Origin: a virus
Taxonomy: Duplodnaviria > Caudoviricetes
Reading direction: 5' to 3' (one strand)
Length of the DNA stretch: 64,000 nucleotides
IMG/VR virus record: IMGVR_UViG_3300027762_000009
Location: 474-64,473 of that record
In this document: positions 16,228 to 27,008 of the stretch, in pieces
Layout of the letters: each line of letters starts with the position of its first letter
Numbering within the stretch: position 1 is the first letter of the stretch
Notes under the pieces: generated by a model
Database searches by the model: none
Told to the model about the DNA's origin: nothing
Seen by the model: only the letters and a program-made list of their open reading frames with translations
Made by a program: the position numbers and the translations under genes

Positions 16228-17139
16228 TTAAGCATTATCTAATGCATAAAGGGTAGTCATGGTAGGATTATCAATCCATAAACCCTTTAAGGCACTTCCA
16301 AATCTATGTTTAGCTGCAATATGCGCTCCTCCGTAAAAACCTCCTTCAAGATATAAACGACGAATAATAGTACCGCCATCCTGAGGTATTTTATCTAAAT
16401 AACCAACTACGTCAACTAAACCCCGCACATCTCCTGAAAGTTTACCAGGTAACATAGGTTCATAGTGAAATTGCTTTCTAGCATCCTGTTCAAAATCTCT
16501 ACCGCAGATAAATAAACTATTTACAGGAAGATCACGATACCTTCTTACTAAGAATTGAATCATCTCTCTAGATTTACCCCACTCTGAAAATTGTGCTGCA
16601 TCTGGCTCCGCATCTAATTTCTGTTTCAACGGATCAATACCTAATAATTGATACATACAATATTTTTGTGCTTCTGTAAGGGAATCAGTAATAACAGTTC
16701 TAAATTTCTTAGGCTCGGGAATTAGCGCGGCCATTTTCTTTTCATCTTGCAAATCACCTGGTGCGAAACCCTTAATTTGTCCTTCTAATTTACGTAAACT
16801 AACTAAATCATTACTGTCTCTAAATTGTACATGAAGTTTCATAAATTCATAGATATAACTATATTGCTTGTAGTTTTGTACTGGAATAACTAAAATATGC
16901 TTATTAGGGTTAATATCCATCTTTTTACATAACTTAGCAATCTCGCGCAAACTTTTTTCTCCCCCTTCAAGGGATATATACAATATGTCGCGCATTTCTT
17001 CAGCTAATACAGCAGAACCAGCTAACCAAGTCTTACCTACTCCAAAATCGCCATAAAATAAAGCATTCATCCAACTAAAAGATTCTTCAATATCTCTACC
17101 TAAAATTAAAGGTATTGCTGTTGGTGTTGTCATATTCAT
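16228..17139 (-). CDS. AAA_24 / Sak4-like ATPase (recombinase)
   Basis: FYGDFGVGKT Walker A, VITDSLTE Walker B, VDVVGYL, AKHR. Confidence 0.85.
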   Translation of the reverse strand: MNMTTPTAIPLILGRDIEESFSWMNALFYGDFGVGKTWLAGSAVLAEEMRDILYISLEGGEKSLREIAKLCKKMDINPNKHILVIPVQNYKQYSYIYEFMKLHVQFRDSNDLVSLRKLEGQIKGFAPGDLQDEKKMAALIPEPKKFRTVITDSLTEAQKYCMYQLLGIDPLKQKLDAEPDAAQFSEWGKSREMIQFLVRRYRDLPVNSLFICGRDFEQDARKQFHYEPMLPGKLSGDVRGLVDVVGYLDKIPQDGGTIIRRLYLEGGFYGGAHIAAKHRFGSALKGLWIDNPTMTTLYALDNA

Positions 17140-17689: not shown

Positions 17690-19051
17690 CTACTCCTCCT
17701 TAGTCTTATTATCATCAGGTAATATAATATTTATACCGTCAAAATCAATATCAAAATCATCTTCTATTACTACGCCCTCTTTTATCATTTCATTGATTTT
17801 CATTCGCCACTCTTCTTTTTGCCCATCTTCTTGTCTTGGTCTTGCTTCGTATTCATTATCAAGAATTAAAGCTACTTCACTATTACGACCATCATCAATA
17901 GCTAAACAAACGTGACGTAAAGGACAGTCCCAAATACAATCTCTGGTAGGATTCGGATATAAATATAAATCAGAATTAAGCATTAATTGAAGTTCTCCCA
18001 TTATATGTCTATATGTGGCTTCTAATTGTTCTTTATTACGTTGAATAAAATCCCATCTAATAAATCTATCACCCTCAGGAGTTTCCTGCTCAGCTAGATG
18101 GTTTAAAAAATCTATATATTTCATAGGGGCTTTCTGCACAGAACCAAATTCATTAATTAATTCTTGTCTAACAAGATAATGTGTAGTCTTTTGTTTCTTA
18201 TCCACACTTAATTCACCGCTTTTTAGCCGTTTAGGTTTTTTAGCAATATCTTTAGTTAGTTGCAAATAAACAAAGCCATATATAGGATGCCCAAACCATT
18301 TTTCCGCTGCCCATAAATAAGCACTAATCTGGTCATCTGTGTCTAATTTATTTGTATCTGCTCCTTTAGCGGTCTTATAGTCAAGAATCCACCAGCGTCC
18401 ATAACGATCTATTACAAGTCTATCCATAGTACCATGATAATAAATAGGTACTATCTTAATAGGTATTTCTTTTCCTTTATGCATATAAGTATATTCTGGT
18501 TCCTGATCAGCAAGCCTAAACATATCAAAGGCATTCTGGTTTATTAACTGTGGATCTCCTTCCTTATATTCACAGATAATTTCTTCTGTCTTAGCATTTA
18601 CTATTACTTTAATATCCAGGTCAATAAAAAAACGTTGCTCTACTGCAGGCTTAGCTCCTTCACTGAAAGGAACACAAGGTTTATTATTTTCGTTTAACCA
18701 TAGTGTTTGGAAATCCCATTGTTTGTTATATCGTGGATACCAATCTAAGAAGTATGTTAACATTGCTATTCCCAAATCATATGCGTCTTCCGCTCCATCA
18801 GGTAATGTATCCTTATCAAATGCATTGTAATATGCCTTGAATGCTTTTCTTGGATCACCAAAATAATTATAACTAAAATAGTCTTCCATAGCGAAATGTA
18901 TCGCGGAACCGAACCAAAAATGTATATTCTGTTCAGTCCCTTTTCTTTGTAAGTTTCCTTTAAGAGACGATTGCCATCCCCATTTACGTAAACAACGTCT
19001 AAAAACACGTCTATCTGAAGTTCTTATAGTAAATTTACTTAAATTGTCCAT
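17690..19051 (-). CDS. PD-(D/E)XK exonuclease (Cas4/RecB-like)
   Basis: RCLRKW, FGSAIH, GTMDRL..WILDYKT, QISAYLWA, C-terminal CIWDCPLRHVC. Confidence 0.88.
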   Translation of the reverse strand: MDNLSKFTIRTSDRRVFRRCLRKWGWQSSLKGNLQRKGTEQNIHFWFGSAIHFAMEDYFSYNYFGDPRKAFKAYYNAFDKDTLPDGAEDAYDLGIAMLTYFLDWYPRYNKQWDFQTLWLNENNKPCVPFSEGAKPAVEQRFFIDLDIKVIVNAKTEEIICEYKEGDPQLINQNAFDMFRLADQEPEYTYMHKGKEIPIKIVPIYYHGTMDRLVIDRYGRWWILDYKTAKGADTNKLDTDDQISAYLWAAEKWFGHPIYGFVYLQLTKDIAKKPKRLKSGELSVDKKQKTTHYLVRQELINEFGSVQKAPMKYIDFLNHLAEQETPEGDRFIRWDFIQRNKEQLEATYRHIMGELQLMLNSDLYLYPNPTRDCIWDCPLRHVCLAIDDGRNSEVALILDNEYEARPRQEDGQKEEWRMKINEMIKEGVVIEDDFDIDFDGINIILPDDNKTKEE

Positions 19052-19084
19052 AAATAATTTTCCCTCCCCTAATTTGATTTGTAT

Positions 19085-19124
19085 TCATATTATTATAATA
19101 TTGAAATAAAAAAGATTTTTAACG
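19085..19124 (-). promoter_or_regulatory. Phage-specific promoter, copy 2
   Basis: CGTTAAAAATCTTT-N10-TATTATAATAATATGA. Confidence 0.75.
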
Positions 19125-19131
19125 AGGTTAA

Positions 19132-20538
19132 TCATTTTAATTTTAGTTCCTGCCTGCGATTTATTTTAAAACGATTCAATAGCATTGTATATTGTTCCTC
19201 ATTACCTATAGCCCAGTTACTAGCATCTTGTTTGTCATTTAATCTCTGCGCCACATCTTCATCAACAGTATTTCTATGCATGAAATAATAAATATTGACA
19301 AAATGTTTTTGTCCAAAACGATGAAGTCTATCTTCAGATTGTACATTTTGATTAAAGTCCCATTCATATCCTAAGAAAAAGGCATGCGATGCCTCCGTAG
19401 CATGAAAAGATGCACCACTCTTAATAACACATATAAGTATTTTTTTGTTACTTTTATTCTTTTGAAATTCCTGCCACTCATCAGCAAATTTTTGTGCCGT
19501 CATACCACCCGATATTGTATATACTTTAATATCTTTCATACTCTTATGGATAGCTTCTTGGATATGTGGTATTACTTTCCTAAAAGGCGTAAATACTACA
19601 AATGATTGACCAGATTCAATTAAATCCTTACCCATGATAATTAATTGTTCCAAAGCAGCTCCGGTCGATTTTAAACCCAACATAGCAGGACAAGTAAGCA
19701 ATTGACGTAGTCTTAAAATTAAAGACATCATATTGGGTGTAATTAAAGCGGAATCCTCTAACTCTAAATACATATTTGTAACTAAATTGTTATATGCTTT
19801 TTCTTGTTCTTCATCCATGTCAACATATATAATCTGCCTTTGCTTTCCGGGTAAATCTTTAAGTACTTCATCTTTTGTTCTACGCAACATGTATTCTTTA
19901 AGCATATTACGAAAAGACTCTATATTCTTTGGTCTTCTTTCAATACTCTTACCAAAAGGAGTATCAATCGTAATACAATATTTATTAACAAACTGCCAGT
20001 AACTTTTAAAATTAGCCTTATCAATCATGGACAAAGGTGCATATAAATCAATCACACCTTGACGGATTGGCGTACCAGTGAGTAGATAAACATAAGGAAT
20101 ATTCCGCGCGAATTTTTCGAACGCCGTGTAAGTTTGCGATTTATGGTTAAGCAAACCGGATACGTGTATTTCATCTGCCACTAACCCATGTATATTTGGA
20201 TCAAGCTTTACAATTTCGTCGAGCATACCATACGTTGTAATTAAATAACCACCCTGGTACGATTCCCAAAGCTTTGCTCTTTTGGCTAATGTTCCAGAAT
20301 AAACAATACTGTCTTTTCCAAACCATTTCATAATTTCTTCTTTCCATACATATAAAGCAAACTTAGGACAGAAAATTACACAATTAAAGTCTTTATCTTC
20401 CCATATTATTTCTAAAGCGGTTAAAGTTGTTACGGTTTTACCTAAGCCCATTTCATCATATACAAGACATTTTTGTTTATTACGTAAAAAATGAACCCCA
20501 TCAATTTGATAGGGCCTAAGTTTATCAGATATTACCAT
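19132..20538 (-). CDS. SNF2-family helicase
   Basis: LRPYQ, DEMGLGKT, ADEIH, LTGTPI, MLRRTK, QSEDRLHRFGQ. Confidence 0.93.
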   Translation of the reverse strand: MVISDKLRPYQIDGVHFLRNKQKCLVYDEMGLGKTVTTLTALEIIWEDKDFNCVIFCPKFALYVWKEEIMKWFGKDSIVYSGTLAKRAKLWESYQGGYLITTYGMLDEIVKLDPNIHGLVADEIHVSGLLNHKSQTYTAFEKFARNIPYVYLLTGTPIRQGVIDLYAPLSMIDKANFKSYWQFVNKYCITIDTPFGKSIERRPKNIESFRNMLKEYMLRRTKDEVLKDLPGKQRQIIYVDMDEEQEKAYNNLVTNMYLELEDSALITPNMMSLILRLRQLLTCPAMLGLKSTGAALEQLIIMGKDLIESGQSFVVFTPFRKVIPHIQEAIHKSMKDIKVYTISGGMTAQKFADEWQEFQKNKSNKKILICVIKSGASFHATEASHAFFLGYEWDFNQNVQSEDRLHRFGQKHFVNIYYFMHRNTVDEDVAQRLNDKQDASNWAIGNEEQYTMLLNRFKINRRQELKLK

Positions 20539-20888
20539 CTTTTACCTCCTTTTACCTCCATATAATTCATAAGGAACTTAATTATATCTTTTCTATCAGT
20601 ACACAATTGCATTGTGGTACCATCTTTAAAATAAATATCGCAATCCAATTCTATTGATTTACGATTCATGAGTGCCATAGTAATAGCTCCTCCCACACCT
20701 GCAACAACAGCACCTACTAAGGATGAAGAACATGAACTATAGAAACTGGATCCATTACTACTAACTTTTATTATCTTTACTCCGACAATCTTATCATTAA
20801 GATCGTCATACTTAAATAAACCAGTAACGCCTATTAAATCTCCTCCCATTAACATTACTTTACTGTATTTACCTTTTACGTCTAACAC
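20532..20888 (-). CDS. Hypothetical protein with glycine-zipper hydrophobic segment
   Basis: SLVGAVVAGVGGAITMAL; RBS GGAAGGAG; overlaps the helicase start. Confidence 0.6.
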   Translation of the reverse strand: MLDVKGKYSKVMLMGGDLIGVTGLFKYDDLNDKIVGVKIIKVSSNGSSFYSSCSSSLVGAVVAGVGGAITMALMNRKSIELDCDIYFKDGTTMQLCTDRKDIIKFLMNYMEVKGGKRW

Positions 20889-20913
20889 AGCAACAGCTCC
20901 TTCCTATTTTGAA

Positions 20914-20963
20914 ATGTCCTCTGTATTTCCTCGGGCTTGGAACCGACCTCGGCTACATTACAT
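20914..20963 (-). ncRNA. Twister self-cleaving ribozyme (type P1)
   Basis: RNA AUG-UAA-UGUA-GC-CGAGG-UCGG-UUCCAAGC-CCGA-GGAAA-UACA-GAGGA-CAU maps element by element onto the twister consensus (P1, UAA cleavage site, P2, P4 loop AAGC, GAGG). Confidence 0.85.
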
Positions 20964-21019
20964 AGAGGAATGAGTTTGATGATAGGAAGCCGCGCGAACT
21001 CATCCCTCTCTCTATTATC

Positions 21020-21277
21020 CTAATCTATTGAAACGATATACTTCTCTAAAATTATCTTTTCAATTCTTTGTCTAACTGCACTGTTGATAGGATGTGCTAC
21101 ATCTCTATATTCTCCTTCTGGCGTTTGTCTGTTAGGCATTGATATAAATAACTCTCCATTATTTTCAATTATCTTAATATCACGTACTACAAATTCATTA
21201 TCAATTGAAATAGATACCACTGCCTTCATTTTATGCCCATTTTCTATTTTCCTGATTCGTACATCTGTAATTTCCAT
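21020..21277 (-). CDS. spoVG: SpoVG family regulator
   Basis: [46 protein letters not shown]. Confidence 0.93.
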
Positions 21278-21278
21278 T

Positions 21279-21515
21279 TTATTGACCTCCTCTACGTATT
21301 TGGTATGCTCGCTTTACTGCTTTGAATTCTGGATCATTTAACTTTAAATCACATACGCAAGTCAATGCAAATGCAAGACCCTTCATTTCATATTGGAGCG
21401 ACATAAATCTTTCTGACTTCCTTGTAGGATCTAAACTCCTTTGTATCTCTATCAGGACATTCAGTCGTTCATGAATACGCTCTTTTGCATTTTGACCCGC
21501 TACATATTTTCTCAC
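21279..21515 (-). CDS. Hypothetical protein
   Basis: ORF with RBS GGAGG in a tight operon. Confidence 0.55.
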
Positions 21516-21690
21516 GCATGTCTTCCTCCTTTGCCTGTTTCGTTAAAGTATCAACGAGTACTTGAGCGGTAGCCATACGGGCTATAGCATAGTCTATTAA
21601 ATGCTCTTCTGCAATACTAAAGTACGATTGTGCTTGTTGTAATTCTTTAATAGCTTCTTGTAATCCTTCTTTAATGCTTACTTTACGCAC
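21469..21690 (-). CDS. DUF2508/YaaL-like small protein
   Basis: EAIKELQQAQSYFS.AEEHLIDYAI..M..A resembles the YaaL pattern. Confidence 0.5.
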   Translation of the reverse strand: MRKVSIKEGLQEAIKELQQAQSYFSIAEEHLIDYAIARMATAQVLVDTLTKQAKEEDMREKICSGSKCKRAYS

Positions 21691-21912
21691 CTAAATTCCT
21701 CCCCTCTTGTTCCAATATTCTATTTCGACATATAAAATTAAAAGTAATACTATACTTAATATAGGTATCCATAAAAAAGAGAATACCCATAACCAAGTCC
21801 AGGTAATAATATTACCCAATTTTAAGCCTATAAAAACTATTTGTAATAAACCAAGCAAAAGACATAGTATAGCGCCACAACCCCTTCTTGGATTATCATC
21901 ATTATCATACAT
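21691..21912 (-). CDS. Small membrane protein
   Basis: LQIVFIGLKLGNIITWTWLWVFSFLWI, a common phage membrane-protein motif. Confidence 0.7.
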   Translation of the reverse strand: MYDNDDNPRRGCGAILCLLLGLLQIVFIGLKLGNIITWTWLWVFSFLWIPILSIVLLLILYVEIEYWNKRGGI

Positions 21913-21914
21913 AT

Positions 21915-22184
21915 TTATTCCTCCAACATCTTTAATAAATTAAAAATACCTCTACCTTTTTGTTTAGTACTCGGATAACCCTTCCCCAAACACCAATATC
22001 CTGTACTTGGCCAGAAATGATAATTTATTCCTGTTTTAGAATAGACACGTACAAAACCATTTACACCTTCTTCAAAACGTATATCATTCTGTATTAACTT
22101 TTGTATGGATGCATCATAATTACGTTTTTTCTTGTCCCTAGAATATTCACGCATAACTTTAAAAGTTTCAGATGAGCTACTCAT
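21915..22184 (-). CDS. Hypothetical protein
   Basis: FWPSTG..GRGI..LL motif typical of small phage proteins. Confidence 0.65.
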   Translation of the reverse strand: MSSSSETFKVMREYSRDKKKRNYDASIQKLIQNDIRFEEGVNGFVRVYSKTGINYHFWPSTGYWCLGKGYPSTKQKGRGIFNLLKMLEE

Positions 22185-22672
22185 AAGATATCTTCACCTC
22201 TTTTGTAAAATAACAAAAAATATAGTCCATGCCTTATAGCATCACGTGAATGCTTCATACCCTCTTTCCAAAAACCCCATTCTTTTAATTTTCGATCAGT
22301 TACGAATGCTTTTGCTTGAGAAGCCATTTGATATTGCACTGGCCTATGATGCTTCCAACAATGATAATCTATAGCACCAATTAATCTTAAAGTAGGTATT
22401 GCACTAAAACTATGTCTATCTAATTTATGTTGGTATACTCTGTAATTTTCACATACTACGAAGTCATGTTCTTGACTCATTAATATTTCTTCTAAGTTAT
22501 TCCAAAGTAAATCATCTTTGTTTACGGTCGCAGTCTGTCCCCAACTAGTTAATTTAGACCCATGAAAAATAGCATATCCAGTTGTTTCACCTGGATCTAA
22601 ACATAATAAACTAACTGGTACCTTATCATCTTTACGTGAGAGATTAAATAATTCTTCCCATTTAATCGACAT
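22181..22672 (-). CDS. RuvC-like Holliday junction resolvase
   Basis: LCLDPGETTGYA, VVCENY, HSRDAIRH (RNase H fold acidic residues). Confidence 0.8.
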   Translation of the reverse strand: MSIKWEELFNLSRKDDKVPVSLLCLDPGETTGYAIFHGSKLTSWGQTATVNKDDLLWNNLEEILMSQEHDFVVCENYRVYQHKLDRHSFSAIPTLRLIGAIDYHCWKHHRPVQYQMASQAKAFVTDRKLKEWGFWKEGMKHSRDAIRHGLYFLLFYKRGEDIL

Positions 22673-23366
22673 AATATCCCATCTCCTCACACTTTTCTTT
22701 AATTTTTTGTATTACCCTTTGATGTCTTGTTCTTACATTTTGTATAGACATTCCTAAAATATCCGCCATTTGACTCATATTAAAGCGGGTTTTTTGTGAT
22801 ACTTCTCTAGCAGACTCAGACAAATAACGTAATTCAAGCAAAGTCCATTTCTCTAAATCAATCTTAGTATTTTGTCCCTTAGTTGCATTAGCTATCTCCT
22901 TTATGCAAGGTTGAATTACCACATCAAATAAACTAACCAAATCATTCTCTTCAATAATATTATTGAACTGTTCTTCGGAAAGTAAATCAGCAACAAGATC
23001 TGCATTACTAATTTCATGGCCATCTACTAATATAAATGCATTAAGATATACCATCTTATCATTCAATATATTTTCGATCAATGTAGATGCATATCTATGT
23101 TGCCTATGCAATTCCCGTTCAATACAAAAACATGCGTAGGATGCAAAAGGCACCCCACGCTCTTCTTTGAATGTATCAACCGCAACTATTAACCCCATAC
23201 AGCCTGCTTGATACTGATCATCAGAATAAGGTCTCCATTTCTTTAACACATGGGAAACTAACTTCAAATTTTCTTCAACTATCGTATTACGATATAACAG
23301 TGCCTTTTCTTCTTCAGCCTTCATCCTTCTAAATAAATTCAATGTTCTTTCCTGGTGCAAATTCAT
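22662..23366 (-). CDS. RNA polymerase sigma factor (sporulation sigK/sigE-like region 2)
   Basis: IVEENLKLVSHVLKK, DDQYQAGCMGLIVAVDTF, FASYACFCIERE; C-terminal HTH MSQMADILGMSIQNVR. Confidence 0.88.
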   Translation of the reverse strand: MNLHQERTLNLFRRMKAEEEKALLYRNTIVEENLKLVSHVLKKWRPYSDDQYQAGCMGLIVAVDTFKEERGVPFASYACFCIERELHRQHRYASTLIENILNDKMVYLNAFILVDGHEISNADLVADLLSEEQFNNIIEENDLVSLFDVVIQPCIKEIANATKGQNTKIDLEKWTLLELRYLSESAREVSQKTRFNMSQMADILGMSIQNVRTRHQRVIQKIKEKCEEMGYYVD

Positions 23367-23392
23367 AATAGATTCCCGCCTCCTCCGTATAA

Positions 23393-23629
23393 TTACTTGT
23401 GCCGTATCCAAATTAAAGATATTTCTGCCAATAATGCCATTAAATCATTATCAATCGAATCTGCAAATTGATCCGCAATCAAATCCAGTTGATTGGATAA
23501 AGCTGCTAAACGATTTATCTGTACCTCCTTAAGATAAATTAAATGAAATTCATTTAAACAAAAATCATCTAACATATCCGCCAATTTTGTTGCCTCTTGC
23601 CATGATAGTTTCGCTTTAGTATTTTCCAT
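23393..23629 (-). CDS. Hypothetical protein
   Basis: ORF with RBS, downstream of a promoter-like AT-rich tract. Confidence 0.55.
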   Translation of the reverse strand: MENTKAKLSWQEATKLADMLDDFCLNEFHLIYLKEVQINRLAALSNQLDLIADQFADSIDNDLMALLAEISLIWIRHK

Positions 23630-23725
23630 AAAGAACCCCCTTCCTAAGGAACTAAAATTTAAAAAGTTATCTATTAATATTATATCATAAAAATATAAAA
23701 AATAACAGCTATTTTGAAAAAAATA

Positions 23726-24472
23726 TTAAGAAAAAAGTTCTGGATGACTATCAACATATTTCTCAGCCTTTTTTATTACTTCTTCAACTTGTTGCGCAGA
23801 TAAATTTCGTGCATCTTTCTCTTTACGTAAATTACAAAGGGTGTGTGTGCACGCAATATTGGTAAAACAATCGCTTCCGCCCAACACCACTGGTACGACA
23901 TGGTCTAATTGTAAATTCTTTAGTACTGTAATTGATTCACCACAAAGATAACATATAGGATGTTCACCTACTCTATCCCTATCAATAACCCAATCTCTTT
24001 CATATTTGATTCCTTTATTAGTAGCTAATAATTGTCGTCTTTTTTTGTGTGCCTTTCTCATTACTTTTTTACCTACTTTAGAATTATTATACTTTTTTTG
24101 TTTTTCCAATATAGTTTCTTTATTTTTCTGATAGTATTGTCGTCCTACTTCTTGCTTTCTTTCCTTATTTTGTTCATAATACTGCTTATAATCACGTTTA
24201 TGTTTAGTTCTTTCATAAGATAATTGTGCCGTATTCTTTTGACACTGTTTGCAATTACCTGTACATTTATTCTTGGCATTGTTATTAACATTAAATAGGT
24301 AAAATTTCAATATTTGATGACAGCGTCCACATCTTTTGTAGCCCTCAGGAATTTCTGCATTTTCTGTTAATTCTAGAAAATCAGGGGACTGTAAATAAGC
24401 ATCATTGTTGAGTACAATTTCCGCAATTTCAAGTCGCTTTAATTGTTTTGCTTGTTCTTCTGTATAATGCAC
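23726..24472 (-). CDS. HNH endonuclease
   Basis: N-terminal CxxC Zn motifs; CYLCG..QLDHVVPVVLGGSD..NIACTHTLCN. Confidence 0.9.
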   Translation of the reverse strand: MHYTEEQAKQLKRLEIAEIVLNNDAYLQSPDFLELTENAEIPEGYKRCGRCHQILKFYLFNVNNNAKNKCTGNCKQCQKNTAQLSYERTKHKRDYKQYYEQNKERKQEVGRQYYQKNKETILEKQKKYNNSKVGKKVMRKAHKKRRQLLATNKGIKYERDWVIDRDRVGEHPICYLCGESITVLKNLQLDHVVPVVLGGSDCFTNIACTHTLCNLRKEKDARNLSAQQVEEVIKKAEKYVDSHPELFS

Positions 24473-24583
24473 ATGCTTATCCTCCTATACTATTATTCTC
24501 TCCGCATATACGTCAAAATATAGCTGGCCCTTATGAACCAGCTATATTTAAAAGAAACAATATTATAAAAATTAATTTATTAT

Positions 24584-25429
24584 TTATTCTGTAACTTCTG
24601 TTTCTGTTATCTTGTCGGCTTCATCTGATTTAATTTGCATACCCTCAAGAACTTTAAGCGCATTAGTAAGTAAATCAGGATTTTCCACAGCATCAATGAA
24701 TTTTTCAAGTGCTTTAACGGCGTCAACAAATTTTTCTTCTATTGTTTTCATCTTCTTAGTTGCTTGCCATACTACTGAATATTCAACACCAAGTTCTTTA
24801 GCAATGTCTCCTTTGGTAACACCTTCAGCAACTCTTTTACGAATATATTCACTTCTTGAAATTTTTGTACCATCTACAAGTTCAACTTCATATTTTTGTC
24901 TTGTACCATCAGCATCTTTAGTTAATCCATAAACAACTCCATAAGAAAGGTCAAGCATTTTTGCTATATCCCCACGACTAAGGCCTGCTTCAATTTGTCT
25001 CTTGATCCATTCATTTCTATCACTTTCCATAGTATCAGGAACTCCGGCTCCCTCAGGTTGTTCTTCTCCATTAATAAAAACTTTACCATCTTTAACGAAA
25101 AGAACTTTGTCTTCTTCCGTAATTTGGATTTTACTAAAAGTAACTCCTCTTCCTCTTGAAGTAGGTTCCGCTTCATTTTCCATGTTTACAGTTGCACCAT
25201 AAACAGTTCTATAAGGAATTGCATAATCTTCAGAAATCTGTTTTCGGCTTTTATTAAATGAAGAAAATTGTTCTCTGATGAAAGCACTTTTGGAACATAG
25301 AGTTCCATCTGCTAATCTCCACTCCTGTTCTTGTGTATCTTCTTCAACTGTAGGTACTTCTGTGTCTAATATCTCGTTGTTGTTCATTTCGTCCATTGTT
25401 TCTTCCTCCTGATTAAAATATTCGTTCAT
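24584..25429 (-). CDS. DNA-binding protein with three tandem HTH repeats
   Basis: Repeats SKSAFIRE..SRKQIS..IPYRTVY / DRNEWIKR..SRGDIAK..LSYGVVY / SRSEYIRK..TKGDIAK..VEYSVVW. Confidence 0.75.
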   Translation of the reverse strand: MNEYFNQEEETMDEMNNNEILDTEVPTVEEDTQEQEWRLADGTLCSKSAFIREQFSSFNKSRKQISEDYAIPYRTVYGATVNMENEAEPTSRGRGVTFSKIQITEEDKVLFVKDGKVFINGEEQPEGAGVPDTMESDRNEWIKRQIEAGLSRGDIAKMLDLSYGVVYGLTKDADGTRQKYEVELVDGTKISRSEYIRKRVAEGVTKGDIAKELGVEYSVVWQATKKMKTIEEKFVDAVKALEKFIDAVENPDLLTNALKVLEGMQIKSDEADKITETEVTE

Positions 25430-25468
25430 GATTCTTCCTCCTTCTAGATTGTAATTAATTTATAATTG

Positions 25469-25508
25469 TTATATTAATATAATATTAAAATAAAAAAGAT
25501 TATTAACG
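25469..25508 (-). promoter_or_regulatory. Phage-specific promoter, copy 3
   Basis: CGTTAATAATCTTT-N10-TATTATATTAATATAA. Confidence 0.75.
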
Positions 25509-25683
25509 ACGAAAATCAAAAAAAATTTAAAAGACCCCTATTTGAAATTTAACCATAAATGTGTGTAGCCTGAAAGAAGGACGCCGGTAGCATCTTATGC
25601 CCTTCTCTTATAAACCTTTTGTATAAATTATGCTTCCTTCAGGTATTAATTAATTGTGGAGCCTTATTTTGAAGAAATTTCCC

Positions 25684-25723
25684 CGTTAATAATCTTTTTA
25701 TTTTTAATATTATAATAATATAA
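25684..25723 (+). promoter_or_regulatory. Phage-specific promoter, copy 4 (divergent from copy 3)
   Basis: CGTTAATAATCTTT-N10-TATTATAATAATATAA. Confidence 0.75.
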
Positions 25724-25784
25724 AAATATTTATCGTAATAATACTTTAAGTGAAGGGAAAATATTCATTAGAGGAGGTAAGTAC

Positions 25785-25964
25785 ATGTCACAAAATGATA
25801 AAAAACAGGGAAACAAAAAGAAAATGCTTGGCGGTTTCGTACCGGCGGAAATTTATTGGGCATTTAAAGAAATGGCTGCTATTAGAAAAGAATCAATGAC
25901 TGAAGCTTTAACTAATGCCATATTAATGTATATTGATGTAGAAGAAGAAAAAACACAAGAATAG
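25785..25964 (+). CDS. Ribbon-helix-helix-like small DNA-binding protein (59 aa, absent from the ORF track)
   Basis: RBS GAGGAGG; KKMLGGFVPAEIYWAFKEMAAIRKESMTEALTNAILMYI fits the strand-helix-helix RHH pattern. Confidence 0.7.
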   Translation: MSQNDKKQGNKKKMLGGFVPAEIYWAFKEMAAIRKESMTEALTNAILMYIDVEEEKTQE

Positions 25965-25973
25965 GAGAAATTT

Positions 25974-27008
25974 ATGGATATTACACAAGAAACTTTGTAT
26001 GGTTTGGTTTCAAAATTAGCTGTAATGAAACCTTTCTCTGTTAAGGAGGATAATACGAAACAGAAAATTAAATTAAATGAATTTTTTGCATCTAATGAGT
26101 ATATTGCTGAAGATAAAATAGATGGTTGTCATTATCTAATGGTAGCCTGTCGTTTCTTTAGTACAGAACATGTAGAAAAAACAAATAATTTCCCACATCT
26201 TAGAGATTTCTTTATTAAATTGGCGATGCCTAATCTTATTCTAGATGGAGAAATAAATTATCCTGGAAAGACTAGTCAATACTGCACTAGAGTAACCGGC
26301 GCAGATGCTTCTACGGCAGTATCTTTTCAAAATACTAACGGTCCTATTAATTATACTATTTGGGATATCTTAAGAACTCCTAAGGGTACTTGGTTAGTTA
26401 ATGAACCTTTATATAAGAGAAGACAAATACTTGAATATTGGTATGAACATTATGTCAAAGGTACTGTACTAGAATCCTATATAAAACTAACTAAATGGGT
26501 TGAATCAGATAAAATGTCTTTTAAAGAGGAAATCATTAATGGTGGTGGAGAAGGTATCATTTTAAAGAAAAAAAATAGCCTATACGTAATGGGTAAAAAA
26601 CCCGCCTGGATGTGGATAAAAATTAAAATACATGATACGGCCGATTTATTTATTACCGGATTTGAAAAACCTAAAGTAGAATATACTGGAAAGGACTATG
26701 ATGGATGGTCTTATTGGATGGATATTAATGGAATTACAACTCCCGTAACAAAATATCATTATTTGAATTGGATAGGTGCCATTGAATTATCTGCCTATGT
26801 TAATAACCAAATACACAAAGTTTGTACATGTTCAGGGATTACAGAAGAAGTAAGGAAAAATATTTCTGAAAATCCTGAAGCCTTTCTAAATAAGGTAGTT
26901 AAGATTTCTTATATGGAAAAAACAGAAGCAGGCATACCAAGACATCCAAGATTCGAAGAATTTCATGAGAGTAAAACAGCCCAAGAATGTACTTGGAATT
27001 TTGATTAA
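25974..27008 (+). CDS. ATP-dependent DNA ligase
   Basis: EDKIDG, ILDGEI, WDIL, EGIILK, WIKIK, C-terminal PRHPRF. Confidence 0.93.
   Translation: MDITQETLYGLVSKLAVMKPFSVKEDNTKQKIKLNEFFASNEYIAEDKIDGCHYLMVACRFFSTEHVEKTNNFPHLRDFFIKLAMPNLILDGEINYPGKTSQYCTRVTGADASTAVSFQNTNGPINYTIWDILRTPKGTWLVNEPLYKRRQILEYWYEHYVKGTVLESYIKLTKWVESDKMSFKEEIINGGGEGIILKKKNSLYVMGKKPAWMWIKIKIHDTADLFITGFEKPKVEYTGKDYDGWSYWMDINGITTPVTKYHYLNWIGAIELSAYVNNQIHKVCTCSGITEEVRKNISENPEAFLNKVVKISYMEKTEAGIPRHPRFEEFHESKTAQECTWNFD

What the first reader, a model, noticed from the sequence alone, without database searches (positions are those of the whole stretch)
20899..21012. Twister ribozyme wired into a possible translational switch between spoVG and the helicase genes
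Seen: a canonical P1 twister at 20914-20963 (minus strand), predicted to cut between U20960 and A20959. Just upstream is a long hairpin (GAGAGGGAUGAGUU...AACUCAUUCCUCU). Its loop contains CUUCCUAU (20982-20989), exactly complementary to AUAGGAAG (20900-20907), which overlaps the Shine-Dalgarno of the next gene. The hairpin 3' arm UCCUCU can alternatively pair with the ribozyme's AGAGGA, which would block folding, and the hairpin starts a few nt after the spoVG stop codon. Inference: self-cleavage, possibly gated by ribosome position or by the RNA-binding SpoVG, releases an anti-SD and licenses translation of 20532..20888 and the coupled SNF2 helicase.
Basis: partly seen in the sequence, partly recalled or inferred. 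Interest (0 to 1): 0.8.

Follow-up and report, generated by a model that had tools for sequence, protein, structure and literature searches.

The report
Phage twister ribozyme between two genes
A genuine self-cleaving twister ribozyme, with its known optional upstream hairpin, sits between two genes of a phage operon and most likely just cuts the messenger RNA there; the proposed translational switch rests on a single 8-base match that nothing else supports.

Summary
A type-P1 twister lies at 20913-20964 (minus strand). It scores 47.8 bits against RF03160 and is the only Rfam hit in the window at E <= 0.5 (E 1.6e-7). It misses the curated cut-off of 67.2 bits because it lacks the optional P3 stem. 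All core helices and both pseudoknots are present. T1 is kept by a compensatory U-A pair, which also covaries across 93 phage twisters. The upstream hairpin (20964-21009), the 8-nt loop/SD complementarity and the UCCUCU/AGAGGA complementarity are all at the stated coordinates.

The switch interpretation is not supported. The hairpin matches the known optional P0 stem. A hairpin of this kind abuts the cleavage site in 48 of 55 dereplicated phage twisters, and 32 of 55 have an SD-led gene start within 60 nt downstream. The 8-nt anti-SD match arises in about 1% of shuffles. It has no relatives to test, and no counterpart in 35 other loci. The alternative pairing is at chance level and 5.1 kcal/mol worse than the P0 fold.

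Best reading: constitutive intercistronic mRNA processing. This is a new member of a known kind, of modest interest.

The parts
21020..21277 (-). spoVG-like gene (85 aa), the cistron upstream of the ribozyme; stop codon TAG at 21022-21020
   Evidence: Pfam PF04026 SpoVG, E 5.3e-34, 116.7 bits; ORF list; sequence
20964..21009 (-). P0 hairpin: 13-bp stem (21009-20997 with 20976-20964, one G.U pair) and a 20-nt loop. It abuts P1 with no unpaired base. After cleavage it would sit 4 nt from the 3' end of the upstream RNA
   Evidence: MFE folds (-16.7 kcal/mol for the 50 nt before the site). Matches the position of the optional P0 stem named in review text. The same arrangement occurs in 48 of 55 phage twisters
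20982..20989 (-). CUUCCUAU in the P0 loop, complementary to the SD region (candidate anti-SD; not shown to function)
   Evidence: Duplex energy -8.6 kcal/mol. A match of 8 nt or more in 65 of 5000 shuffles. Loop opening cost 0.6 kcal/mol
20913..20964 (-). Type-P1 twister ribozyme lacking P3 and P5. P1 is 20963-20961 with 20916-20914 (3 bp). P2 is 20957-20954 with 20925-20922. P4 is 20946-20944 with 20933-20931. T1 is 20941-20939 with 20919-20917. T2 is 20953-20952 with 20936-20935
   Evidence: RF03160 47.8 bits, E 1.6e-7 in the window. Pair counts on 28 P3-less twisters
20959..20960 (-). Predicted scissile U20960-A20959 step. The expected products are a 2',3'-cyclic phosphate on the upstream RNA and a 5'-OH on the downstream RNA
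   Evidence: Position of the conserved UAA in the cmscan alignment. U-A cleavage site of twisters in review text. End chemistry in the abstract of PMC8782182 (listing). Cleavage itself not tested
20897..20907 (-). AUAGGAAGGAG: the SD (AGGAAGGAG, 20905-20897) plus the two bases that complete the 8-nt complement of the loop. It starts 6 nt after P1 and ends 8 nt before the GTG start
   Evidence: Sequence
20532..20888 (-). ORF118: small protein of unknown family with a GTG start, first cistron after the ribozyme. Its stop overlaps the SNF2 start
   Evidence: No Pfam or PHROG hit. Finds only itself in the 5.8-billion-protein search. 30% identical (E 2e-15, pairwise) to the ORF at the same place before the SNF2 gene in L002
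19132..20538 (-). SNF2-family helicase (468 aa). Its start overlaps the ORF118 stop by 7 nt
   Evidence: PF00176 E 1.7e-38; phrog_62 DNA helicase E 4.9e-90; ORF coordinates

Best explanation
This is an active-looking type-P1 twister ribozyme of the minimal build (P0-P1-P2-P4, T1 and T2; no P3 or P5). It lies in the only sizeable gap between spoVG and the ORF118-SNF2 helicase-exonuclease-Sak4 genes of a phage replication and recombination operon. It most likely works as a constitutive, self-contained intercistronic processing site.

The operon is transcribed through the P0 hairpin and the ribozyme. The ribozyme folds and cuts between U20960 and A20959. The upstream RNA (spoVG and the small genes before it) is left ending in a 13-bp hairpin, 4 nt and a 2',3'-cyclic phosphate. 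The downstream RNA begins with a 5'-OH buried in the compact twister fold, 6 nt ahead of the SD region of ORF118. The two halves of the transcript can then have different lifetimes and translation rates.

Shown here: the identity and completeness of the motif, its placement, and that hairpin-twister-SD-start is the usual layout of phage twisters. Inferred: cleavage in vivo, the protective role of P0, and the effect on expression.
For: Identity:
- RF03160 full-length match at 47.8 bits. It is the only Rfam hit in the window at E <= 0.5, with E 1.6e-7.
- The window shares every invariant column of 28 aligned P3-less twisters. This includes C15, G19, C21, G23 and T24, which neither my search pattern nor my parser forced.
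- In that alignment 92.9% of pair cells are standard pairs, and 0 of 500 shuffles reach that value. P1, P2, the outer P4 pair and one T1 pair all show changes on both sides.
- The window's UUCC...GAGGA keeps T1 by a U-A pair where the consensus has C-G. Over 93 parsed phage twisters this pair is T/A in 61, C/G in 31 and T/G in 1.
- P3-less twisters are common: 42 of 80 unique ones have the same 11-nt segment between GC and CCAAG as the window.
- Review text states that P0, P3 and P5 are optional (21%, 78% and 1% of annotated twisters), that P1 is dispensable for cleavage, and that the site is the U-A step.

Layout, in 55 dereplicated loci:
- A hairpin (MFE <= -10 kcal/mol) ends within 10 nt of the site in 48 of 55, against 375 of 1046 random positions.
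- An upstream ORF stops within 200 nt in 46 of 55, at a median of 30.5 nt.
- An SD-led start lies within 60 nt in 32 of 55, against 417 of 2200 random positions. The median is 28 nt and the window's is 28 nt.
- P0 stems differ in sequence beside identical ribozyme cores, for example GGGAGGC/GCCUCCC against GGGCGGC/GCCGCCC. The hairpin shape is therefore what is kept.
- There is no room for a promoter between P0 and P1, and no U-tract follows P0. Hairpin and ribozyme must be on one RNA.

Literature:
- Processing of polycistronic mRNAs into parts of different stability or translation has been suggested for bacterial twisters and hammerheads (review section 13).
- The 5' end of the twister 3' fragment is described as buried in the fold.
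- Hatchet ribozymes likewise carry a P0 stem upstream of P1 in 90% of environmental sequences, and it does not contribute to cleavage.
Against: - No cleavage or expression data exist for this element, and no RNA run could be listed.
- The score is below Rfam's curated cut-off.
- P1 has only 3 base pairs (window row).
- The hairpin control is not clean: 36% of random positions also pass the criterion.
- The set of 55 loci was collected with one fixed core pattern (4-bp P2, no P5) from one collection, and gene starts were called by a crude rule.
- The window's P0 is atypical. Its loop is 20 nt where the others mostly have 3-8 nt, and that loop carries the 8-nt anti-SD (about 1% by chance). Simple processing does not explain this.
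- In Bacillus, the 5'-OH made by the glmS ribozyme marks the downstream RNA for RNase J1 decay (recalled, not read here). The downstream half could therefore be destabilised rather than protected.
- In E. coli reporters, cleavage by a twister in a 5'-UTR did not by itself change expression.
- Related phages run the same ORF118-like/SNF2 pair without any ribozyme. The element is therefore dispensable for these genes.
Confidence: 0.6

Rival explanations
1. One reading: a cleavage-released translational lock. In the uncut RNA the P0 loop (CUUCCUAU) pairs with AUAGGAAG and masks the SD of ORF118. Self-cleavage lets the P0 fragment leave, which frees the SD and, through coupling, SNF2 translation. 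Ribozyme folding might itself be gated by UCCUCU:AGAGGA pairing, ribosome position or SpoVG.
For: - A perfect 8-nt complement lies in an unpaired 20-nt loop and covers half of the SD.
- A match of 8 nt or more occurs in only 65 of 5000 dinucleotide shuffles and 26 of 5000 loop shuffles.
- The duplex energy is -8.6 kcal/mol, against opening costs of about 0.6 kcal/mol for the loop and 1.2 kcal/mol for the SD.
- The loop is unusually large for a P0.
- With only 3 bp in P1, the cut fragment could dissociate.
- The principle works when engineered: a twister with the SD masked in P1 or P3 gave 5-fold and about 100-fold higher reporter output when active.
- The ORF118 stop overlaps the SNF2 start.
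Against: - It rests on a single sequence, and no relative of the junction was found in viral, genome or metagenome collections.
- None of the 35 other phage twisters with a nearby start has an anti-SD in the P0 loop. Their matches of 7 nt or more are P1 or lie outside the loop.
- By duplex energy the window is unremarkable (z -1.5, 9% of shuffles).
- The match was chosen after reading 64 kb, so the true chance level is above 1%.
- The UCCUCU:AGAGGA alternative is 5.1 kcal/mol worse than the fold that keeps P0. It would also need the 13-bp stem, which is made first, to open.
- Such complementarity is at chance level across loci: mean 3.62 nt observed against 3.62 nt shuffled, with 1 of 55 loci at p <= 0.05.
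- A ribosome stopping at 21022-21020 is 10 nt from the stem.
- The SD would have to reach a loop 13 bp away through a 6-nt linker while P1 is formed (inference from the geometry).
- The ORF118-like/SNF2 pair in L002 is translated from an ordinary 17-nt junction.
Confidence: 0.1
2. Down-tuning element. Cleavage exposes a 5'-OH that makes the downstream ORF118-helicase-recombination RNA a substrate for 5'-end-dependent decay, as with the glmS ribozyme in Bacillus. The ribozyme would lower the downstream genes relative to spoVG rather than protecting both halves.
For: - The cut geometry is the same as in the best explanation.
- glmS ribozyme cleavage strongly reduces glmS expression (review text). 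The RNase J1 route to that effect is recalled, not read here.
- A low-GC phage carrying spoVG suggests a Bacillota host, where such decay exists (inference).
Against: - The 5' end of the twister 3' fragment is described as buried in the fold and poorly accessible even to a ligase.
- In E. coli reporters, twister cleavage in a 5'-UTR left mRNA level and expression unchanged.
- 32 of 55 phage twisters sit directly before an SD-led start, which would be an odd place for a purely destructive element.
- The host is not known.
Confidence: 0.15
3. Passenger or relic. The twister with its P0 is a horizontally spreading or decaying motif with no role in expressing the flanking genes. The complementarities are coincidences.
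For: - The twister is absent from all 6 SNF2-related loci, from the SpoVG-related locus L111 and from the phage record L112.
- Identical ribozyme-plus-P1 cores turn up beside unrelated flanks.
- P1 is only 3 bp here.
Against: - Every conserved position and both pseudoknots are intact, with a compensatory T1 pair.
- Placement is not random: it lies in a gap between genes on the coding strand, like most phage twisters.
- An intact ribozyme in an operon transcript will cut that transcript whatever its origin.
Confidence: 0.1

Closest known systems
Type-P1 twister ribozyme (Rfam RF03160), minimal form as in the Oryza sativa Osa-1-4 structure 4OJI
   Same: It has P1, P2 and P4, the T1 and T2 pseudoknots, the conserved UAA, GCC, AAGCCCG, AAA and GAGG elements, and a U-A scissile step. 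Review text describes the basic P1 form as lacking P0, P3 and P5.
   Different: P3 is absent, so the Rfam score (47.8) is below the cut-off (67.2). T1 uses U-A instead of C-G. P1 is only 3 bp. P0 is present. Activity was not measured.
Optional P0 stem of twisters, and the analogous P0 of hatchet ribozymes
   Same: It is a hairpin immediately 5' of P1, and so immediately before the cleavage site. Review text puts P0 in 21% of annotated twisters. For hatchet it is in 90% of environmental sequences and is not needed for cleavage. A hairpin of this kind is present in 48 of 55 phage twisters here.
   Different: The window's P0 has an AU-rich 13-bp stem and a 20-nt loop, where the others mostly have a short GC-rich stem and a 3-8 nt loop. 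I could not read the original definition of P0 (Roth et al. 2014 is not held). Equating this hairpin with P0 therefore rests on its position and on the review's wording.
Engineered SD-masking twister and hammerhead switches (Felletti et al. 2016, PMC5052635)
   Same: An active twister gave 5-fold (P1 format) to about 100-fold (P3 format) more reporter than an inactive one.
   Different: In those constructs the SD is built into P1 or P3. Here it lies 6 nt outside P1 and would have to pair with a distant hairpin loop. There is no evidence that this natural element switches anything.
Proposed role of bacterial twister and hammerhead ribozymes in processing polycistronic mRNAs (review PMC6765202, section 13; Felletti et al. 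2017 RNA Biol, not held)
   Same: The placement is intercistronic in an operon near phage genes. The expected outcome is transcript parts with different stability or translation.
   Different: That role is a suggestion in the literature, not an established mechanism. Nothing here adds experimental support. The 2017 paper's statements about protective 3' structures are recalled only (one search failed).
RNase III processing sites between phage T7 early genes
   Same: The logic is analogous: a cut between cistrons leaves a hairpin at the 3' end of the upstream RNA (recalled textbook knowledge, not checked here).
   Different: There a host protein enzyme cuts within a hairpin. Here the RNA cuts itself next to the hairpin. 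The resemblance is in how it works; it is not membership.

Membership tests
Twister ribozyme, type P1 (RF03160) | Covariance-model score at or above Rfam's curated gathering cut-off (67.2 bits) | tested here: not met
   The score is 47.8 bits. The loss comes from the deleted P3 positions in the alignment. P3 is optional according to review text. The cut-off is an operational threshold, not a structural feature. E is 1.6e-7 for the whole window.
Twister ribozyme, type P1 (RF03160) | Helices P2 (4 bp) and P4 enclosing the conserved L4 loop | tested here: met
   P2 is UGUA/UACA and P4 is UCG/CGA, both fully paired in the window. P2 is paired in 100% and P4 in 98.8% of cells over 28 sequences, with changes on both sides. 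P2 pairing was required by my parser, so it is not independent evidence.
Twister ribozyme, type P1 (RF03160) | Pseudoknot T1 (L4 with the 3' GAGGN) and pseudoknot T2 (GC after P2 with the GC of AAGCC) | tested here: met
   In the window T1 is UCC/GGA. The variable T1 pair is UA in 22 and CG in 6 of 28 sequences, with none unpaired. Over 93 twisters it is T/A in 61, C/G in 31 and T/G in 1. The T2 pairs are invariant, partly because the search pattern fixed them.
Twister ribozyme, type P1 (RF03160) | Conserved core nucleotides, including the U-A-A at the cleavage site | tested here: met
   The window has every invariant column of alignment A1. The UAA is at 20960-20958.
Twister ribozyme, type P1 (RF03160) | Stem P1 closing the motif | tested here: inconclusive
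   Only 3 pairs form (AUG/CAU); the outer two positions are mismatched. Review text says P1 is dispensable for cleavage.
Twister ribozyme, type P1 (RF03160) | Site-specific self-cleavage giving 2',3'-cyclic phosphate and 5'-OH ends | not testable with these tools
   There is no assay here, and no RNA sequencing run could be listed.
Twister with optional P0 stem | A hairpin directly 5' of the P1 strand | tested here: met
   The stem at 21009-20997 with 20976-20964 abuts A20963 of P1. P0 is named as optional in review text. The original description was not readable.
Ribozyme-released SD mask (translational switch) | The SD is paired in the uncut RNA and free in the cut RNA | tested here: inconclusive
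   An 8-nt loop/SD complement exists. It would be a pseudoknot, which the folding tools cannot score. In nested models the SD opening energy is 1.16 kcal/mol before cleavage and 1.47 kcal/mol after.
Ribozyme-released SD mask (translational switch) | The masking pairing is conserved or covaries in related elements | tested here: not met
   No relatives of the junction were found. None of 35 other phage twister loci has a loop anti-SD.
Ribozyme-released SD mask (translational switch) | Expression of the downstream gene depends on cleavage | not testable with these tools
   This needs reporter or phage mutants.

The most novel reading that the evidence does not exclude
The enlarged P0 loop of this twister is a natural anti-SD. 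In the uncut operon RNA it holds the ribosome-binding site of ORF118, and through coupling that of the SNF2 helicase, shut. Self-cleavage is the licensing step that lets the hairpin fragment leave. This would make it the first natural self-cleaving ribozyme that turns translation on in a bacterial virus. A milder general form also remains open: in the phage twisters whose SD abuts or overlaps the 3' strand of P1 (for example L026, L092, L094, L096), cleavage could free the SD directly.
Probability: 0.1. Interest if true: 0.75.

Novelty: new member of a known kind. Interest (0 to 1): 0.3.

Why it matters
What twister ribozymes do in bacteria and phages is still open. Reviews offer only the suggestion that they process polycistronic mRNAs. 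This locus is a clean, compact test case. It has one intact minimal twister with P0 in a single gap of a phage replication operon, a defined upstream cistron (spoVG) and a defined downstream SD.

The survey done here shows that stop codon, P0 hairpin, twister, about 28 nt, then an SD-led start is the normal layout in phage contigs. That points to intercistronic processing as the general job. It also points to P0 as the part that stays on the upstream product.

As a single instance the element is ordinary. It would matter more only if the loop/SD pairing proved functional.

Tried and rejected
1. Rfam at gathering thresholds over the window returned nothing. The E-value mode was needed.
2. Relatives of the junction:
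- The ORF118 search in viral contigs and in genome contigs confirmed none.
- An exact 19-nt core stretch in viral contigs gave 0 hits.
- ORF118 against 5.8 billion proteins found only itself.
- The SNF2 search gave 6 loci with no Rfam hit at E <= 0.1.
- The SpoVG search gave 1 locus with no twister.
- blastn of 1 kb against phage records gave 7 short fecal-phage records that match only inside spoVG. I fetched only H1 (L112), and it has no twister.
- A P2-specific pattern in metagenome contigs gave 2 loci (L109, L110). Both have a hairpin before the twister but unrelated genes.
3. Promoter and terminator scan of 19000-26000: counts were at shuffle level and nothing lay at the junction.
4. The whole-RNA MFE of 20880-21030 is not more stable than shuffles (z 0.11). 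This was expected, because pseudoknots are not scored.
5. Duplex-energy test of upstream region against SD region over 36 loci: median z -0.57, and 1 of 36 at p <= 0.05. The excess of long exact matches I first saw there turned out to be P1 pairing.
6. I tested whether upstream hairpins carry a decoy or complement of the ribozyme's CAGAGGN. There is no enrichment. CCTC counts were 9 against 9.75 expected, and GAGG counts 14 against 13.07.
7. My first start-codon rule could count the ribozyme's own GAGG as an SD, so I replaced it. One search used wrong P2 coordinates and was redone; only one search's loop-opening value is used.
8. RNA evidence: no RNA holder was listed.
10. Papers:
- Roth et al. 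2014 and Felletti et al. 2017 are not held. What I say of them is recalled or taken from reviews.
- Searches for a natural twister/SD switch or for work on twister P0 listed no paper describing a natural twister-controlled SD in phages. This covers the held library only.
- No supplementary files were opened. The supplements of the original twister paper may define P0 and its statistics more exactly than the review text I used.
11. Rows dropped:
- Of 109 pattern matches, the L001 copy of the window was removed, and matches that did not parse as N-AA-P2-GC with a 4-bp P2 were dropped. That left 93.
- 80 of these were unique.
- 25 more were dropped for short flanks or for flanks more than 80% identical to a kept locus. 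That left 55.
Full report
WHAT IS THERE. The window is almost all of a 64,473-bp IMG/VR virus record rated 99% complete. From about 25.4 kb down to about 4 kb the genes run on the minus strand, tightly packed. Around the finding they are:
- small ORFs;
- a SpoVG homologue at 21020-21277 (PF04026, E 5.3e-34);
- a 131-nt gap;
- ORF118 at 20532-20888, with no family hit;
- an SNF2 helicase at 19132-20538;
- a PD-(D/E)XK exonuclease at 17690-19051;
- a Sak4-like annealing protein at 16228-17139.
This is a phage replication and recombination module.

THE RIBOZYME. Rfam's default thresholds give nothing. In E-value mode the twister-P1 model RF03160 matches 20913-20964 on the minus strand, end to end, at 47.8 bits. 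It is the only hit at E <= 0.5 in the whole window, with E 1.6e-7. The alignment shows why it misses the 67.2-bit cut-off: the positions of stem P3 are deleted.

A review states that P0, P3 and P5 are optional (21%, 78% and 1% of annotated twisters). It also states that the crystallised rice twister lacks all three, that P1 is dispensable for cleavage, and that the scissile step is U-A. In the window the U-A-A is U20960 A20959 A20958.

To judge the P3-less build I scanned IMG/VR for the core pattern and got 101 stretches. Of the pattern matches, 93 parsed as twisters and 80 were unique. Of the 80, 42 have the same 11-nt segment between GC and CCAAG as the window.

An alignment of 28 distinct P3-less twisters is gapless apart from a one-base offset in two rows. 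The window shares all its invariant columns. On the P1/P2/P4/T1/T2 structure, 92.9% of cells are standard pairs, and 0 of 500 shuffles reach that. Eleven of 17 pairs show changes on both sides.

The window's departures from the Rfam consensus (UUCC for UCCC, GAGGA for GAGGG) compensate each other in T1. Over 93 twisters that pair is T/A in 61, C/G in 31 and T/G in 1. The window's P1 has only 3 pairs. I rate the identification as a twister at about 0.9. Activity is untested.

THE HAIRPIN. The 13-bp stem (21009-20997 with 20976-20964) and its 20-nt loop are real. The stem begins 10 nt after the spoVG stop codon and stacks directly on P1. This is the position of the optional P0 stem.

In 55 dereplicated phage twister loci, the 50 nt before the cut fold to -10 kcal/mol or better, with the hairpin ending within 10 nt of the cut, in 48 loci. 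Among random positions of the same loci, 375 of 1046 pass. The median MFE is -15.1 kcal/mol, against -9.8 for shuffles.

Next to identical ribozyme cores the P0 stems differ in sequence but stay paired. No U-tract follows P0, and there is no space for a promoter between P0 and P1. The hairpin is therefore transcribed with the ribozyme and ends up 4 nt from the 3' end of the upstream product. Hatchet ribozymes have an analogous P0 in 90% of environmental sequences, and it is not needed for cleavage.

THE CONTEXT IS TYPICAL.
- An upstream ORF stops within 200 nt of the cut in 46 of 55 loci, at a median of 30.5 nt.
- An SD-led start of an ORF of at least 40 codons follows within 60 nt in 32 of 55, against 417 of 2200 random positions.
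- The median distance among the 36 starts found is 28 nt, and the window's is 28 nt.
The two metagenome twisters with the window's P2 sequence also have a hairpin just upstream. One of them has a GGAGG-ATG 20 nt downstream.

THE SWITCH MODEL. The 8-nt complement (20989-20982 with 20907-20900) is exact and lies in the loop. Its chance level is as follows:
- 8 nt or more in 65 of 5000 dinucleotide shuffles of the upstream 60 nt;
- 8 nt or more in 26 of 5000 loop shuffles;
- 2 of 102 SD-bearing starts of the window at the same spacing, this site included.
By duplex energy the window is not an outlier (z -1.5).

In the 35 other loci with a nearby start, the matches of 7 nt or more are P1 strands or lie outside the hairpin loop. 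None is a P0-loop anti-SD.

The model cannot be tested by covariation, for these reasons:
- ORF118 finds only itself in 5.8 billion proteins.
- No relative was confirmed in viral or genome contigs.
- The six SNF2-related loci and the SpoVG-related locus have no twister.

ORF118 does have a 30%-identical counterpart directly before the SNF2 gene of L002 (E 2e-15 pairwise; 1 of 7 loci by tblastn). This supports the GTG start and the gene's reality. There the junction is an ordinary 17-nt SD spacer, so this gene pair does not need a ribozyme.

The proposed competing pairing UCCUCU:AGAGGA gives a best structure of -20.8 kcal/mol. The fold with P0 intact reaches -25.9 kcal/mol, before counting the pseudoknots. 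Complementarity between upstream regions and the ribozyme's 3' element is at chance level: 3.62 nt against 3.62 nt, with 1 of 55 loci at p <= 0.05.

With the ribozyme helices enforced, opening the SD costs 1.16 kcal/mol in the precursor and 1.47 kcal/mol in the 3' product. Any masking would therefore have to come from the loop pseudoknot alone.

The model is not excluded. The principle works in engineered twisters, and the large loop is unexplained. I put the switch model at about 0.1.

BEST EXPLANATION AND RIVALS. The best explanation is constitutive intercistronic self-processing. P0 caps the upstream product, and the folded twister with its buried 5'-OH heads the downstream product. This fits the suggestion in the literature.

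Whether the downstream half is protected or, as with glmS in Bacillus (recalled), exposed to decay is open; that is the second rival. A passenger or relic reading is the third. No expression data could be obtained.

NOVELTY. The class, the P3-less form, P0, and the association with phage genes are all in print. This locus is a new member. The layout statistics are a modest addition, from one pattern-limited sample. Searches of the held library listed no natural twister/SD switch in phages. Subscription papers and supplements were not visible.

VERDICT. Interest is 0.3.

Noticed in passing
L043:974-1963 (+): Three twisters lie in tandem within about 1 kb of one viral contig. Each has an upstream hairpin and nearly the same P1, and each is followed by GGGAAGAGG-type purine runs and short ORF starts. 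This looks like a repeated ribozyme-gene cassette.
   Followed up: no
L012, L016, L019, L025, L028, L035, L074, L087, L091, L093 (contigs of 76-148 kb): A family of large-phage twisters shares a conserved downstream stretch with hairpin potential instead of an SD-led start, and a weak AU-rich hairpin upstream. The ribozyme may flank a non-coding RNA there.
   Followed up: no
L026, L092, L094, L096, L097 (downstream of GAGGN): In several phage twisters the SD abuts or overlaps the 3' strand of P1, with the start codon 14-19 nt after the core. Cleavage could free the SD directly, as in engineered P1-format switches.
   Followed up: partly
L110:3870-3965 (+): The stop codon of the upstream ORF lies in the loop of the hairpin before the twister, and a GGAGG-ATG follows 20 nt after the core. 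Translation of the upstream gene would have to melt that hairpin.
   Followed up: no
window 20532-20538 and L002:2140-2511: ORF118 and the SNF2 helicase overlap (ATGGTAA). A 30%-identical small ORF sits in the same place before the SNF2 gene of a 56%-identical relative. This is a conserved small partner of the helicase, of unknown function, with a Gly/Ala-rich hydrophobic stretch.
   Followed up: partly
55 dereplicated viral loci: A hairpin in the P0 position is far more frequent in this phage sample (48 of 55) than the 21% quoted for all annotated twisters in review text. The two figures use different criteria, so the comparison is rough.
   Followed up: partly
window 21020-21277 and L111:47-289: Phage-encoded SpoVG homologues occur in this phage, in a 48%-identical viral contig, and in seven short fecal-phage records that match the gene at 69-81% DNA identity. 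The role of SpoVG in phages was not examined.
   Followed up: no
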